A stretch of DNA of 64,000 nt from Pseudomonadota bacterium (GCA_039819325.1 JBCBSF010000005.1:10317-74316), one strand, 5' to 3'; positions 21,202 through 63,784 are shown, counted from the first letter of the stretch. A program made the numbers and translations. Notes: generated from the letters alone by a model not told the origin.

Positions 21202-21212
21202 GCAATGATTGC
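21202..21212. promoter_or_regulatory. candidate ParD operator palindrome
   Basis: Perfect palindrome GCAAT-G-ATTGC about 63 bp upstream of the parD ATG, in an AT-richer stretch. Confidence 0.25.
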
Positions 21213-21274
21213 TTTTTCGCCTGCTGAATGTCTCTTCACTAGCAAAGCGGCACTCTAGGGCGTATGTTTTCGTC

Positions 21275-21520
21275 ATGACGATGAAACTGACACCCGACCA
21301 AGAGGCCGTCGTGAAGCAGGTCGTCGACGCTGGCTTGGCCGAGTCCGCGGAGGCCTTCGTGTCCGAGGCCTTGCGCGATCAGCAGGATGAGTTGGCGCAG
21401 AACGCCGCCGTGAAGCAGTGGCTCCGAGACGTTGTCGTGCCGGCGCATGAGGAGTTCATGAAGGACCCGTCGCAGGGCCGAACCCTTGCGCAAATGCGGG
21501 CTGAACTCCTCGATGACTAG
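21275..21520 (+). CDS. parD: ParD-family type II antitoxin
   Basis: 81 aa, with a helical acidic C-terminal half. Sits immediately upstream of and abutting a ParE-like gene (TAG then GTG). Confidence 0.7.
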   Translation: MTMKLTPDQEAVVKQVVDAGLAESAEAFVSEALRDQQDELAQNAAVKQWLRDVVVPAHEEFMKDPSQGRTLAQMRAELLDD

Positions 21521-21820
21521 GTGAGGATTGTCTTTTCGGCGCGGGCTCAGCGGGATCTACATCAGCTAAAAGCCTGCATCGCGCGGGAATCCTACGCCTC
21601 CCGCGCAAAGTCCTACTTCGACCGTCTTCTTAACACCTGCGAGAGCTTATCGACCTTTCCACGACGCGGAATGGCCCACGACGACGTCCTGCCAGGCCTG
21701 CGCACCATCGTTTTCGAAGGCCGAACCATCATCGCCTATTCGGTATCAGGCGACACCATCAGAATTCAAGCCGTGTTCCATGGCGGCCAGAACTGGAAGG
21801 AGCGCCTCCAAGAGGGTTAG
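21521..21820 (+). CDS. parE: ParE/RelE-family type II toxin
   Basis: 99 aa. MRIVFSARAQRDLHQL...IAYSVSGDTIRIQAVFHGGQNW matches the ParE pattern (F...A..DL ... I..I.HG.). Confidence 0.8.
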   Translation: MRIVFSARAQRDLHQLKACIARESYASRAKSYFDRLLNTCESLSTFPRRGMAHDDVLPGLRTIVFEGRTIIAYSVSGDTIRIQAVFHGGQNWKERLQEG

Positions 21821-22882: not shown

Positions 22883-22914
22883 GGCACCGGCCCGCACCCC
22901 CGCCCGGCCACCCA
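22883..22914. repeat. left arm of REP-like palindrome interrupted by the IS
   Basis: GGCACCGGCCCGCACCCCCGCCCGGCCACCCA. It is the inverted partner of 24339-24370 and near-identical to 63704-63735. Confidence 0.85.
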
Positions 22915-23205
22915 TATGTGGACGGCCCCTTGCTTGCAAGAGGATAGAGGCGAGGTGCGTTGGGTCGCTTGCATCCATATGTCCGGCCTATTGTTGCGGT
23001 CTCGATCGACCGCTGGCCAAGATGGTTTCCGCGACGGGAGTGCCTAACACGAAAGCGGCGTCTAGCGCCGTTGGGTGGCCCGGCGTGTCTCTCGTCCCGG
23101 ATCGACCGATCCCACCATCTCCTCTTCTCCGGCAAGCAGCGGCATCGACCGGGCAGAGGCACAGCAGTCGCCCCGGCCCGGTCGATCTTGCCTGGTCGAT
23201 CTCGT
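22915..23205 (-). ncRNA. candidate bridge (seek) guide RNA in the 3-prime non-coding end of the IS
   Basis: A 291-nt non-coding stretch downstream of the transposase. It contains CGTTGGGTGGCC (23069-23080), a 12/12 match to the reconstructed empty target across the junction. It also contains CTCTCGT (23089-23095, 7/7 to the other flank), CGTTGGGT (22958-22965) and CCATATGT (22975-22982, equal to the junction sequence at 22912-22919). Strand and exact ends were not determined. Confidence 0.45.
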
Positions 23206-24246
23206 TCAGGCGGCCCTGGACGCCGCCGTGGACAGGCGGGCGAGATCGAAGGGTTCGCCGGTGACCATTAGTTTCCACGCGATGCGGGCTATCTTGTTGG
23301 CCAGCGCCACGGCGGCAAGCTTACGTGGCTTGCGCTGCAGCAGGCCTGCCAGCCAAGGCGACACAGGGCCCCGGCCGTGCAAGGCCTGGCGGATCACAGC
23401 CATCGCCCCGACCACCAGCACGCTGCGCAGCGCCGGGTCACCAGCCCGGGTGATCACCCCGAGCCGTGTCTTGCCCGCGGTTGAGTGATCCTTCGGCGTC
23501 AGGCCGAGCCAGGCCGCGAAGTGGCGACCCGAGCGGAACTGTCCGGCGTCGGGGACCTTCATCGCCAGCAGCGTCGCTCCGATCGGACCCACTCCGGGAA
23601 TGCGCGCCAGCCGACGGCTCTCGGCCTTCTCGCGGTGCCACGCCATCAAGCGGGCATGCACCTCAGCGATCTGCACCTGAAGCCGGGCGTACTCCTCGCC
23701 GTGCAGAGCAAAGAGCGCCCGTGCCTGCTCAGGCAGCCGCTCGTCCGAGGCGAGCCGCGCCAGTAGCGCCTCGATCTTGTCCAGCCCCTTGGCGGCGATG
23801 AAACCGAACTCTGCAGCATGACCGCGGATCGCGTTGCTCAGCTGCGTGCGGTTGCCGATCAGCCGGGCGCGCAGGCTCACCAGCATCAGTGCCGCCTGCT
23901 GCTCTTCCGTCTTGACGCCAACAAAGCGCATCGTCGGCCGGCTCATCGCCTCGCACAGAGCCTCGGCGTCGGCCGCGTCGTTCTTGTTGCGCTTGACGTA
24001 GGGCTTCACGTACTGCGGCGGCATCACCTTCACCTCATGCCCCAGCGCTCTCAGAGAGCGTGCCCAGTAATGCGACGCGCCGCCGGCCTCGATGCCGACC
24101 GTGGTCGGCGCAAGCCCGTCAAAGAACGCCAGCACATCCTTACGACGCAGCTTGCGACGCAACACCACCTGCTCCTGACCATCGACACCGTGAAGCTGAA
24201 AAACGTGCTTGGACGTATCCATACCAATTCGGATAATCTCGCTCAT
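23206..24246 (-). CDS. IS110-family DEDD transposase/recombinase
   Basis: 346 aa. N-terminal IGMDTSK and VGIEAGG...KNDAADAEAL (DEDD RuvC-like domain). C-terminal IPGVGPIGA...GLTPKDHSTAGKTRLGVITRAGDPALR (Transposase_20 domain). Confidence 0.9.
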   Translation of the reverse strand: MSEIIRIGMDTSKHVFQLHGVDGQEQVVLRRKLRRKDVLAFFDGLAPTTVGIEAGGASHYWARSLRALGHEVKVMPPQYVKPYVKRNKNDAADAEALCEAMSRPTMRFVGVKTEEQQAALMLVSLRARLIGNRTQLSNAIRGHAAEFGFIAAKGLDKIEALLARLASDERLPEQARALFALHGEEYARLQVQIAEVHARLMAWHREKAESRRLARIPGVGPIGATLLAMKVPDAGQFRSGRHFAAWLGLTPKDHSTAGKTRLGVITRAGDPALRSVLVVGAMAVIRQALHGRGPVSPWLAGLLQRKPRKLAAVALANKIARIAWKLMVTGEPFDLARLSTAASRAA

Positions 24247-24321
24247 GGACGGCTCCTCTGCTTGAGATCTTAGACGACCTCACTCTGGCACATTGATGCC
24301 GTGGGGGCCGTCCACCCCATC

Positions 24322-24370
24322 ACGAGAGTATCCTGGACTGGGTGGCCGGGCGGGGGAGAGGGCCGGTGCC
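24322..24370. repeat. loop plus right arm of the interrupted REP-like palindrome
   Basis: ACGAGAGTATCCTGGAC (24322-24338) is the reverse complement of the 63.7-kb loop with 1 mismatch. It is followed by the arm TGGGTGGCCGGGCGGGGGAGAGGGCCGGTGCC (24339-24370). Confidence 0.85.
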
Positions 24371-63703: not shown

Positions 63704-63784
63704 GGCACCGGCCCGCTCCCCCTCCCGGCCACCCAGTCCAGGATACTTTCGTTGGGTGGCCGGGCGGGGGAGCGGGCTGGTGCC
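63704..63784. repeat. intact REP-like 81-nt palindromic element
   Basis: Arm GGCACCGGCCCGCTCCCCCTCCCGGCCACCCA (63704-63735), 17-nt loop GTCCAGGATACTTTCGT, arm TGGGTGGCCGGGCGGGGGAGCGGGCTGGTGCC (63753-63784). 30/32 positions are complementary. Same family as the IS-interrupted copy. Confidence 0.85.

What the first reader, a model, noticed from the sequence alone, without database searches (positions are those of the whole stretch)
22915..23205. Candidate programmable bridge/seek RNA with guide-like segments matching the insertion junction
- IS110-family recombinases have recently been shown to use an element-encoded non-coding RNA. Its internal loops base-pair with target and donor DNA, and in IS1111-type members it lies downstream of the recombinase gene.
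- The 291-nt 3-prime non-coding end here has no credible ORF. It contains CGTTGGGTGGCC (23069-23080), identical in all 12 nt to the reverse complement of the reconstructed uninterrupted target (...GGCCACCCA|ACG...). The match spans the insertion point.
- Nine nt further on is CTCTCGT (23089-23095), identical to the other target flank (reverse complement of ACGAGAG at 24322-24328).
- A second CGTTGGGT lies at 22958-22965.
- CCATATGT (22975-22982) repeats the flank/IS junction at 22912-22919, which is donor-guide-like.
- A junction-spanning 12-mer inside the element is hard to explain except as a target guide.
- I could not resolve the loop structure or the strand logic by eye. Both target-like segments are in the same sense, which differs from my recollection of the IS621 model.
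Basis: partly seen in the sequence, partly recalled or inferred. Interest (0 to 1): 0.7.

Follow-up and report, generated by a model that had tools for sequence, protein, structure and literature searches.

The report
IS1111-type insertion sequence guide RNA
The non-coding tail of this insertion sequence encodes the expected RNA guide (seekRNA/bridge RNA) that reads both strands of the element's hairpin target; it is a well-supported but ordinary new member of a class described in 2024.

Summary

- **The element.** Window 22915-24321 (minus strand) is an intact 1407-bp IS1111-type element. It has a DEDD transposase, 12-bp subterminal inverted repeats and no target duplication. It sits in a REP-like hairpin, and an empty paralogue of that hairpin lies at 63716-63772.
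- **The RNA.** The 3' non-coding end contains a 168-nt conserved structured RNA (23121→22954). A covariance model built only from relatives hits it once (154.6 bits).
[quoted passage not shown] Its last 2 nt lie in a hairpin stem.
- **Left-flank guide.** It is RNA CUUUCGU (23049-23055) on the 3' side of the loop, in the opposite sense. This resolves the strand puzzle.
- **Covariation.** Across 37 guide classes in relatives, both guides follow the flanks: 9.97 of 13 variable positions match, against 4.13±0.33 when flanks are permuted.
- **Donor-end reader.** CCATATGT (RNA ACAUAUG) is supported as a reader of the right end plus the first two flank bases.
- **Not guides.** CTCTCGT is a stem strand. 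The second CGTTGGGT lies in a closing helix. Neither covaries with targets.

This is a new member of a known kind.

The parts
22915..24321 (-). Complete IS1111-type insertion sequence, 1407 bp. The upstream non-coding end is 75 bp and the downstream non-coding end is 291 bp.
   Evidence: Ends fixed by comparison with the empty paralogous site and by conserved termini in 70+ relatives: left end G[AT]TGGnGTGGACGG, right end CGTCCACATA.
23206..24246 (-). Transposase/recombinase gene, 346 aa, DEDD type. It carries the GLTPKDHSTA motif at aa 248.
   Evidence: Pfam PF01548 (6.3e-14) and PF02371 (2.2e-21). Motif read. The GL-P----S/T-G/A motif and the 330-350 aa length range are given for IS1111 transposases in PMC11187229.
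24304..24315 (-). Left subterminal inverted repeat (GTGGACGGCCCC in element orientation), 6 nt from the left end.
22918..22929 (-). Right subterminal inverted repeat (GGGGCCGTCCAC in element orientation), 3 nt from the right end.
22954..23121 (-). Conserved structured core of the guide RNA (equivalent to the long seekRNA / bridge RNA), 168 nt, in the same sense as the transposase gene.
   Evidence: A covariance model built from 47 relatives without the window hits 22955-23121(-), 154.6 bits, E=1.5e-44; it is the only hit in 64 kb. 95.6% of structure cells are paired and 19 pairs show compensatory changes, against 6.6 in shuffles. The sense strand is favoured: 95.6% against 89.0% paired, 190 G:U against 48 A:C cells.
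23028..23101 (-). Target-binding arm (equivalent to the short seekRNA): basal stem, a 3-bp stem, then an internal loop that carries both target guides around an inner hairpin.
   Evidence: The single-sequence fold reproduces the family structure. Family structure.
23071..23080 (-). Right-flank guide on the 5' side of the loop. RNA GGCCACCCAA pairs with the top strand T|TGGGTGGCC (right flank +1..+9 and left flank -1).
   Evidence: 12/12 match to the junction. Homologous columns are Watson-Crick to right flank +1..+8 in 86-97% of 37 guide classes. Family mean 8.41 against 5.21 permuted, 0 of 2000 permutations reach it.
23056..23070 (-). Inner hairpin separating the two target guides (CGGCG-CUAGA-CGCCG).
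   Evidence: Alignment columns 53-57/66-70 are 97.9% paired, with two compensatory pairs.
23049..23055 (-). Left-flank guide on the 3' side of the loop. RNA CUUUCGU is identical to the top strand of the left flank, so it pairs with the bottom strand.
   Evidence: 7/7 to the empty paralogue (ctttcgt|). 6/7 to the occupied site (ctctcgt|), the seventh position being a U:G wobble. Homologous columns equal left flank -1..-6 in 65-100% of classes. Family mean 5.23 against 2.59 permuted, 0 of 2000.
23089..23100 (-). 5' strand of the basal stem. Not a guide.
   Evidence: Columns 23-34/88-99 include 7 pairs with compensatory changes. No covariation with the left flank. The same 7-mer occurs in L060 and L068, which have different targets.
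23029..23040 (-). 3' strand of the basal stem (CUCCCGUCGCGG).
23115..23120 (-). 5' strand of helix P0 (AGAUGG). It pairs with 23020-25 (CCAUCU) and closes the target-binding arm.
   Evidence: 99.7% paired. Compensatory in distant relatives: UAAUGC/GCAUUA in L087, UAAAGG/CCUUUA in L093, UGAUGG/CCAUCA in L089 and L095.
23020..23025 (-). 3' strand of helix P0 (CCAUCU).
22984..23019 (-). Second arm: UGGCC/GGCCG stem enclosing the hairpin GCGGUC-GAUCGA-GACCGC.
   Evidence: Columns 110-114/144-148 are 100% paired. Columns 116-121/128-133 include 3 compensatory pairs.
22976..22982 (-). Right-end (donor) guide. RNA ACAUAUG is identical to the top strand ACATA|TG, that is the last 5 nt of the element plus the first 2 nt of the right flank. 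It lies in the single-stranded linker after the second arm.
   Evidence: Invariant in the close family. It covaries in distant relatives: ACACAUG with ACACA|TG, AUGUAUG with ATGTA|TG, AUGUACGG with ATGTA|CGG, ACACAAG with ACACA|AG, ACAGAAGUU with ACAGA|AGTT.
23103..23107 (-). 5' strand (GGUCG) of a long-range helix that pairs with 22963-22967 (CGACC). It crosses P0, so the two together form a pseudoknot.
   Evidence: Columns 16-20/165-170 carry compensatory changes in the window (A17G with U168C), L060, L074/L079 and L036. The outer part, columns 12-15/171-174, is not supported in the window.
22958..22965 (-). Second CGTTGGGT (RNA ACCCAACG). It overlaps the 3' strand of the long-range helix. 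It is a window-specific divergence from the family's UCCGAUCA. Its function is unexplained and the match is probably coincidental.
   Evidence: No covariation with targets in relatives (3.59 against 3.64 permuted). Alignment.
24322..24358 (-). Left half of the interrupted target (element orientation: ...CCCGGCCACCCAGTCCAGGATACTCTCGT|): the left hairpin arm and the loop.
22898..22914 (-). Right half of the interrupted target (|TGGGTGGCCGGGCGGGG): the right hairpin arm.
63716..63772 (+). Uninterrupted paralogous hairpin. It is a perfect predicted target: 12/12 to the right-flank guide and 7/7 to the left-flank guide, in one orientation only.
22934..22939 (-). TTGCAA, a putative -35 box. In the excised circle it would lie 17 nt upstream of TA|GATG at the junction (inferred).
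   Evidence: Sequence of the abutted ends. CTTG is conserved at this distance in relatives. A promoter formed at the circle junction was shown for ISEc11 (PMC11187229).

Best explanation
Window 22915-24321 (minus strand) is an intact IS1111-type insertion sequence. Its 291-nt 3' non-coding end encodes a seekRNA / bridge RNA in the same sense as the transposase gene.

**Shown here**
- A 168-nt conserved fold (23121→22954).
- Its first arm carries an internal loop split by a small hairpin.
- The 3' side (CUUUCGU) is identical to the top strand of the left flank, so it is complementary to the bottom strand.
- After a second arm, a single-stranded ACAUAUG matches the right end of the element plus the first two flank bases.
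- All three segments follow the DNA they match across relatives.

**Inferred, by homology with ISEc11, ISPa11, ISKpn4 and IS621**
- The RNA is co-transcribed with the transposase gene, probably from a promoter assembled at the circle junction.
- It is trimmed and bound by the DEDD recombinase.
- It positions the recombinase on the loop/right-arm boundary of a REP-like hairpin (...CTTTCGT|TGGGTGGCC...) by reading one strand on each side of the crossover.
- This gives orientation-specific insertion without target duplication.
- The same guides read the flanks during excision.
For: - **Element type.** DEDD transposase domains. 12-bp subterminal repeats 6 and 3 nt from the ends, a long 3' non-coding end, 346 aa and the GL-P----TA motif.
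- **Junction.** The empty paralogous site proves the junction and the absence of duplication.
- **RNA homology.** The covariance model from relatives alone gives one hit, 154.6 bits, E=1.5e-44, on the minus strand.
- **Structure.** 95.6% paired; 19 compensatory pairs against 6.6±1.5 in shuffles; slid controls 26-37%.
- **Strand.** 190 G:U against 48 A:C cells.
- **Guide-flank covariation.** 37 guide classes; 9.97 of 13 variable positions match against 4.13±0.33 permuted; 0 of 10000 permutations reach the observed value. Separate tests of each guide give 0 of 2000.
- **More distant relatives.** Relatives with 39-63% transposase identity show the same architecture and guides.
- **Right-end guide.** It covaries with five right-end types and three flank dinucleotides.
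- **Published model.** The order 'top-strand match 5' of bottom-strand match' and the 3' location match the IS1111 seekRNA description (PMC11187229). A bridge RNA is predicted in the right end of 93% of IS1111 elements (PMC11208160).
Against: - There are no expression data, so transcription, processing and protein binding are not shown for this element.
- No second copy of this exact element was found, so its own target spectrum could not be checked.
- Thermodynamics alone does not favour the sense strand: the arm has z=-1.4 in sense and -3.0 in antisense.
- No RNA segment was found that covaries with the left end of the element, so a full four-guide IS621-like model is not established.
- Donor and target share no core dinucleotide at the crossover.
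- Rfam 15 gave no hit.
Confidence: 0.88

Rival explanations
1. The target-like segments are chance matches or remnants of captured target DNA, and the 3' end has no guide function.
For: The CTCTCGT match and the second CGTTGGGT match do look like chance. Neither position covaries with targets in relatives. The target hairpin is GC-rich and repeated in the genome.
Against: The 12-mer and the CUUUCGU segment occupy exactly the columns that follow the flanks in 37 independent guide classes, within a conserved scaffold. A captured fragment would not be split into opposite-sense halves around a conserved hairpin.
Confidence: 0.02
2. The conserved fold is a cis-acting 3' UTR or regulatory element of the transposase mRNA (stability, translation control or attenuation), not a DNA-targeting guide.
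For: The fold lies directly downstream of the gene and is probably co-transcribed. The inner hairpin followed by CUUUCGUGUU scores as terminator-like.
Against: A regulatory role gives no reason for loop nucleotides to match the flanking host DNA on both strands and to change with the insertion site. Experiments on family members show the RNA is bound by the transposase and is needed in trans (PMC11187229).
Confidence: 0.04
3. The functional molecule is the antisense transcript (window plus strand), or single-stranded DNA of the element end as in IS200/IS605-type guides.
For: The plus-strand fold is thermodynamically at least as good. A hairpin target would suit single-strand recognition.
Against: G:U pairs are conserved at three positions in nearly all sequences and would become A:C on the other strand: 95.6% against 89.0% paired. 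The characterised seekRNAs are in the sense of the transposase gene and are RNase-sensitive. The enzyme is a DEDD recombinase, not an HUH enzyme.
Confidence: 0.04

Closest known systems
IS1111-family seekRNAs (ISEc11, ISPa11, ISKpn4, ISPst6; Siddiquee et al. 2024, PMC11187229)
   Same: [quoted passage not shown]
- A short segment complementary to the target top strand lies 5' of a segment complementary to the bottom strand.
- In this element the two matches overlap in the target, by the CGT of the 12-mer.
- Insertion leaves no duplication and is orientation-specific.
- Subterminal inverted repeats carry short terminal extensions.
- ISPa11 also targets a REP hairpin.
- The conserved core here is 168 nt and the arm about 74 nt, comparable to the reported long (145-170 nt) and short (70-100 nt) forms.
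   Different: - The sequence is different, and the transposase subfamily differs too. The nearest annotated relative is the rhizobial ISRsp4 family at about 74-84% DNA identity over parts of the element.
- In this subfamily as a whole, the top-strand guide usually stops at +1 and does not overlap the other guide.
- A third DNA-matching segment reads the right end plus 2 flank bases. That paper does not describe such a segment.
- Nothing here has been tested experimentally.
IS621 / IS110-group bridge RNA (Durrant et al. 2024, PMC11208160; Hiraizumi et al. 2024, PMC11208158)
   Same: - An element-encoded structured RNA serves a DEDD recombinase.
- An internal loop has two sides that pair with opposite strands on either side of the crossover.
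- A segment identical to the donor's left-donor end behaves like a left donor guide that includes the next two bases.
- Donor-reading nucleotides sit in a multi-branch region, as the authors noted for many IS1111 elements.
   Different: - The RNA is at the 3' end of the element, not the 5' end.
- The order of guides in the loop is reversed: the right-flank top-strand guide comes first.
- There is no simple second internal loop, and no identified guide for the left end of the element.
- No core dinucleotide is shared between donor (ATA|GA) and target (GT|TG).
- The subterminal repeats are long, at 12 bp.
REP-targeting IS110-family elements with a downstream small RNA (ISPpu9/Ssr9 of Pseudomonas putida, PMC12288879; known to me from the abstract only)
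   Same: Insertion is into repetitive extragenic palindromes, and a small RNA gene lies downstream of the transposase gene.
   Different: The host and sequence family are different. I did not compare the RNAs.

Membership tests
IS1111 group of the IS110 family | DEDD (RuvC-like) transposase with an N-terminal PF01548 domain and a C-terminal PF02371 domain | tested here: met
   PF01548 at 6.3e-14 (aa 7-143) and PF02371 at 2.2e-21 (aa 211-286).
IS1111 group of the IS110 family | Subterminal inverted repeats of 7-17 bp with short terminal extensions (about 7 nt left, 3 nt right) | tested here: met
   A perfect 12-bp repeat, GTGGACGGCCCC, lies 6 nt from the left end and 3 nt from the right end. 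Criterion taken.
IS1111 group of the IS110 family | The longer non-coding region lies downstream of the transposase gene | tested here: met
   291 nt downstream against 75 nt upstream.
IS1111 group of the IS110 family | Site- and orientation-specific insertion without target-site duplication | tested here: met
   Occupied and empty paralogous hairpins were compared: CGT|TGGG with no duplicated base. Orientation specificity follows from the asymmetric loop sequence. Only one insertion of this element was available.
IS1111 group of the IS110 family | Transposase of 330-350 aa with the C-terminal GL-P----S/T-G/A motif | tested here: met
   346 aa, with GLTPKDHSTA at aa 248, the rarer TA variant. 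Criterion.
IS1111 group of the IS110 family | A circular intermediate whose junction forms a promoter | not testable with these tools
   Sequence only: TTGCAA, 17 nt, then TA|GATG across the abutted ends.
seekRNA / bridge RNA | A structured RNA fold conserved among related elements, with compensatory base changes | tested here: met
seekRNA / bridge RNA | Two loop segments complementary to opposite strands of the target on either side of the insertion point. For IS1111, the top-strand match lies 5' of the bottom-strand match. | tested here: met
seekRNA / bridge RNA | Guide segments covary with insertion sites across orthologues (natural reprogramming) | tested here: met
   9.97 of 13 against 4.13±0.33, 0 of 10000 permutations. 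Also.
seekRNA / bridge RNA | Donor-binding segments for both element ends (left and right donor guides, as in IS621) | tested here: inconclusive
   A guide for the right end covaries. No segment covaries with the left end. CCAUCU is complementary to A|GATGG but behaves as a strand of RNA helix P0.
seekRNA / bridge RNA | A core dinucleotide shared by donor and target and read by all guides (IS621 model) | tested here: not met
   The target is ...GT|TG... and the circle junction is ...TA|GA... No dinucleotide is common to both junctions. This separates the element from the IS621 model, not from the IS1111 seekRNA class.
seekRNA / bridge RNA | The RNA is expressed, bound by the transposase and required for excision and insertion | not testable with these tools
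   No expression or biochemical data are available. Shown only for ISEc11, ISPa11, ISKpn4 and IS621 in the literature.
Rfam families | A match to a curated RNA family | tested here: not met
   only sub-threshold chance hits. No bridge RNA or seekRNA family matched.

The most novel reading that the evidence does not exclude
In this ISRsp4-like subfamily the RNA would read DNA with three segments only. These are the right flank on the top strand, the left flank on the bottom strand, and the integrated right-end junction including two flank bases. It would have no RNA guide for the left end and no shared core. The left end would then be recognised through the subterminal repeat by the protein, possibly helped by helix P0, whose 5' strand AGAUGG copies the circle junction A|GATGG. 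That would be a recombination geometry different from the four-guide, shared-core IS621 mechanism. In addition, the window-specific ACCCAACG at 22958-22965 could be a second target-reading segment.
Probability: 0.2. Interest if true: 0.5.

Novelty: new member of a known kind. Interest (0 to 1): 0.3.

Why it matters
- **A clean natural example.** One window holds the element, its interrupted target and a perfect empty target 40 kb away, so the RNA-guided target choice can be read straight off the sequence.
- **Which positions are programmable.** The comparison with about 60 relatives maps them in this alphaproteobacterial subfamily: right flank +1..+8 and left flank -1..-6. The fixed positions are T|TG.
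- **A third guide.** A segment reads the right end plus two flank bases. This bears on how IS1111 elements recognise their own ends, which the seekRNA paper left open.
- **No surprise for a specialist.** Durrant et al. predicted a bridge RNA in the right end of 93% of IS1111 elements.

Tried and rejected
- **Rfam 15 scan** of the element at a permissive threshold: only chance hits to microRNA and snoRNA families.
- **Search for further copies of this exact element, to test its own target spectrum.**
  - Megablast against plasmids found nothing closer than about 74-84% identity.
  - An exact 20-mer scan of metagenomes with the loop sequence gave four unrelated GC-rich chance matches.
  - An exact-protein look-up found no record.
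- **CCAUCU (23020-23025) as a guide for the left end.** Rejected. It does not follow the GAT/GTT variation of left ends. Its partner AGAUGG changes with it in compensatory fashion in L072, L087, L093, L089 and L095, so it is an RNA helix.
- **CTCTCGT and the second CGTTGGGT as guides.** Rejected by permutation tests.
- **A shared core dinucleotide or a shifted element boundary** (the element starting at TGG). Rejected, because the empty site and the contiguous guide both show CGT directly followed by TGGG.
- **Folding energy to choose the strand.** Uninformative. G:U counts were used instead.
- **The variable triplet after ACAUAUG as a reader of the left end or of flank +3..+5.** The agreement was only partial and inconsistent.

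Full report
**1. What is at the locus**

The only long ORF between 22.9 and 24.3 kb runs on the minus strand (23206-24246, 346 aa). It carries both domains of IS110-family DEDD transposases: PF01548 at 6.3e-14 and PF02371 at 2.2e-21.

In element orientation the sequence starts GATGGG-GTGGACGGCCCC and ends GGGGCCGTCCAC-ATA. This is a perfect 12-bp subterminal inverted repeat, 6 nt from the left end and 3 nt from the right end.

The element (22915-24321, 1407 bp) interrupts a long GC-rich hairpin. The hairpin lies between two convergent genes: a membrane transporter gene (PF03547) and a helicase gene (PF13307).

A second, uninterrupted copy of the same hairpin lies at 63716-63772. It reads ...CCCGGCCACCCAGTCCAGGATACTTTCGT|TGGGTGGCCGGG.... 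Comparing the two fixes the insertion point (CGT|TGGG) and shows that no base was duplicated.

Several features are those given for the IS1111 group in PMC11187229 and PMC11208160:
- a long 3' non-coding end (291 nt) against a short 5' one (75 nt);
- a 346-aa protein;
- the C-terminal motif GLTPKDHSTA.

**2. Check of the observation**

All motifs are at the stated coordinates. The exact 12-mer occurs only twice in 64 kb: inside the element and in the empty target. My estimate for a junction-spanning 12-mer arising by chance in 291 nt is about 4e-4. The 7-mer and the second 8-mer are individually weak, at a few per cent.

**3. Related elements**

A scan of one genome per species returned 80 loci with transposases 64-74% identical. 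Their termini are nearly invariant: G[AT]TGGnGTGGACGG... at the left and ...CGTCCACATA at the right. Boundaries could therefore be placed in the same way in every locus. Their flanks fall into many different classes but share ...T|TG...

A scan of viral contigs added relatives down to 37% identity, with different termini.

**4. The guides**

I read the 3' non-coding region as RNA in the sense of the transposase gene. In almost every relative an 8-10-nt segment about 95-125 nt after the stop codon is the reverse complement of the first 8-10 nt of the right flank. Examples are GGGACCCA/tgggtccc, GGAAUCCA/tggattcc, CAAAUUGCAA/t|tgcaatttg, GGAUUUCCCA/tgggaaatcc and AUGUCGCA/tgcgacat.

About 25-30 nt further on, a 5-7-nt segment is identical to the last bases of the left flank. 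Examples are UGUGGUU, GGUGCU, CGGCGU, CAUUAU, AUGAUUU, CGCUUU, UUUCUU, CCCCAU and CCAAGU.

After collapsing to 37 distinct guide classes:
- The first segment is Watson-Crick to right flank +1..+8 in 86-97% of classes.
- The second equals left flank -1..-6 in 65-100% of classes.
- Over the 13 variable positions, 9.97 match on average, against 4.13±0.33 when flanks are permuted among classes. None of 10000 permutations reached the observed value.

In the window:
- The second is CUUUCGU (23055→23049). It matches the empty paralogue exactly. At the occupied site (ctctcgt) it differs at one position, which is a U:G wobble.

The two guides have opposite sense. Their order is top-strand match first and bottom-strand match second, which is the order reported for IS1111 seekRNAs and the reverse of IS621.

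**5. The structure**

An alignment of 48 distinct RNAs (A1) supports the following fold:
- helix P0 (AGAUGG/CCAUCU);
- a basal stem with seven compensatory pairs;
- a 3-bp stem;
- an internal loop that carries the two guides on either side of a small hairpin;
- a second arm, a GGCC stem with a covarying hairpin;
- a 16-nt single-stranded linker;
- a long-range helix (GAUCG/CGAUC) that crosses P0.

Overall 95.6% of cells are paired. Nineteen pairs show double changes, against 6.6±1.5 in shuffles. Sliding the partners drops pairing to 26-37%.

Three G:U pairs are conserved in nearly all sequences. The same structure on the opposite strand pairs only 89.0%. The transposase-sense strand is therefore the functional one.

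A covariance model built from the 47 relatives without the window hits the window once, at 22955-23121 on the minus strand, with 154.6 bits and E=1.5e-44. The isolated arm (23101→23028) folds into the family structure on its own.

In the family, the positions opposite left flank -1..-3 pair in only 14-32% of classes.

**6.

*CTCTCGT (RNA ACGAGAG, 23095→23089).* This is the 5' strand of the basal stem. The same heptamer occurs in L060 and L068, whose targets are unrelated. In the family these columns match the left flank no better than chance: 1.97 against 1.94. In the window it contains the one mismatched stem pair (A·C). I cannot exclude a secondary role, but nothing supports one.

*The second CGTTGGGT (RNA ACCCAACG, 22965→22958).* It replaces the family's conserved UCCGAUCA in the 3' strand of the long-range helix. 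Part of the change is compensatory (A17G with U168C). The family shows no target covariation here: 3.59 against 3.64. I treat it as unexplained and probably coincidental.

*CCATATGT (RNA ACAUAUGG, 22982→22975).* This one is different. ACAUAUG is invariant in the close family and equals the element's last five bases plus the conserved first two flank bases (ACATA|TG). In more distant relatives it changes with them:

| RNA segment | Right end and flank | Loci |
|---|---|---|
| ACACAUG | ACACA\|TG | L087, L088, L103, and an element nested in L054 |
| AUGUAUG | ATGTA\|TG | L089, L093 |
| AUGUACGG | ATGTA\|CGG | L095 |
| ACACAAG | ACACA\|AG | L096-L100 |
| ACAGAAGUU | ACAGA\|AGTT | L099 |

The segment is therefore a genuine reader of the right-end junction. 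It sits in a multi-branch region, as Durrant et al. noted for many IS1111 elements.

**7. Mechanism**

*Shown.* The element type, the junction, the conserved fold, the strand, and three DNA-matching segments that covary with the DNA they match.

*Inferred from experiments on ISEc11, ISPa11, ISKpn4 and IS621.*
- The RNA is made with the transposase mRNA. The abutted ends would give TTGCAA-17 nt-TA|GATG.
- It is trimmed and bound by the recombinase.
- It pairs with the top strand to the right of the crossover and with the bottom strand to its left.
- The element therefore enters the hairpin at one position and in one orientation.
- The flank-reading guides and the right-end guide would also act on the integrated copy during excision.

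*Not established.* How the left end is recognised. CCAUCU is complementary to A|GATGG, but it behaves as a strand of helix P0, with compensatory changes in L072, L087, L093, L089 and L095. It also ignores the GAT/GTT variation of left ends. Donor (TA|GA) and target (GT|TG) share no core dinucleotide, so the IS621 shared-core scheme does not carry over directly.

**8. Comparison and novelty**

The locus meets every testable defining feature of the IS1111 group and of its seekRNA. It does not meet two features specific to the IS621 model: the shared core and a simple donor-binding loop with two donor guides.

The nearest annotated relatives are rhizobial IS110-family elements of the ISRsp4 type, at 72-84% DNA identity over parts of the element. 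No identical copy or protein is on record.

It is a new member of a known kind. The finding is correct and tidy, with occupied and empty targets in one window, but it is not surprising after 2024.

**9. Dead ends**

- The Rfam scan.
- The metagenome 20-mer scan.
- The exact-protein look-up.
- Folding energies as a guide to the strand.
- The promoter/terminator scan.

Noticed in passing
window 63716-63772: An uninterrupted paralogue of the target hairpin, in inverted orientation relative to the occupied one. It matches both target guides perfectly (12/12 and 7/7), so it is a predicted free landing site for the element.
   Followed up: yes
window 21209-21820: Two short adjacent ORFs upstream of the transporter gene. 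The second (99 aa) is a ParE toxin (PF05016, 1.9e-12). The first (103 aa) has no Pfam hit and is presumably the antitoxin.
   Followed up: partly
window 22958-22965: The window element alone has ACCCAACG (RNA sense) where relatives have the conserved UCCGAUCA. It repeats 8 nt of the right-flank guide. Part of the change is compensatory for the long-range helix, and the rest is unexplained.
   Followed up: partly
window 23115-23120 and 24316-24321 / 22915: The 5' strand of RNA helix P0 (AGAUGG) is identical to the predicted circle junction A|GATGG, and its partner CCAUCU is complementary to it. Covariation favours an RNA-RNA helix, but the resemblance to the left end recurs in several relatives.
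   Followed up: partly
L054:1332-1747: One IS1111-type element is inserted inside the guide-RNA region of a different, truncated IS1111-type element. The insertion site fits the inserted element's own guide (T|TGGGGCTT). The host element has right end ACACA and RNA ACACAUG, which gave the first hint of the right-end guide.
   Followed up: partly
L055:3612-3809: A tandem duplication of about 30 nt inside the target-binding loop (right-flank guide, hairpin and left-flank guide repeated). It is absent from the near-identical copies L059 and L073.
   Followed up: no
L034, right end of the element (alignment): The last 24 nt of the right end (TGCGAGGAGGGGGCCGTCCACATA) are duplicated in tandem.
   Followed up: no
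L036:2160-3540: This copy's flanks (aagtct|tggccagcagtccc) do not match its own right-flank guide (GGGGGACCCA). They resemble the family's conserved second-arm sequence (AUCU|UGGCCAGC). It may be an off-target or nested insertion.
   Followed up: no
all related loci: Targets of the whole subfamily share T|TG at the crossover (37/37 T at -1, 35/37 T at +1, 37/37 G at +2), whereas the element ends are ATA and G[AT]T. Donor and target therefore share no core dinucleotide. Left ends come in GAT and GTT forms.
   Followed up: partly
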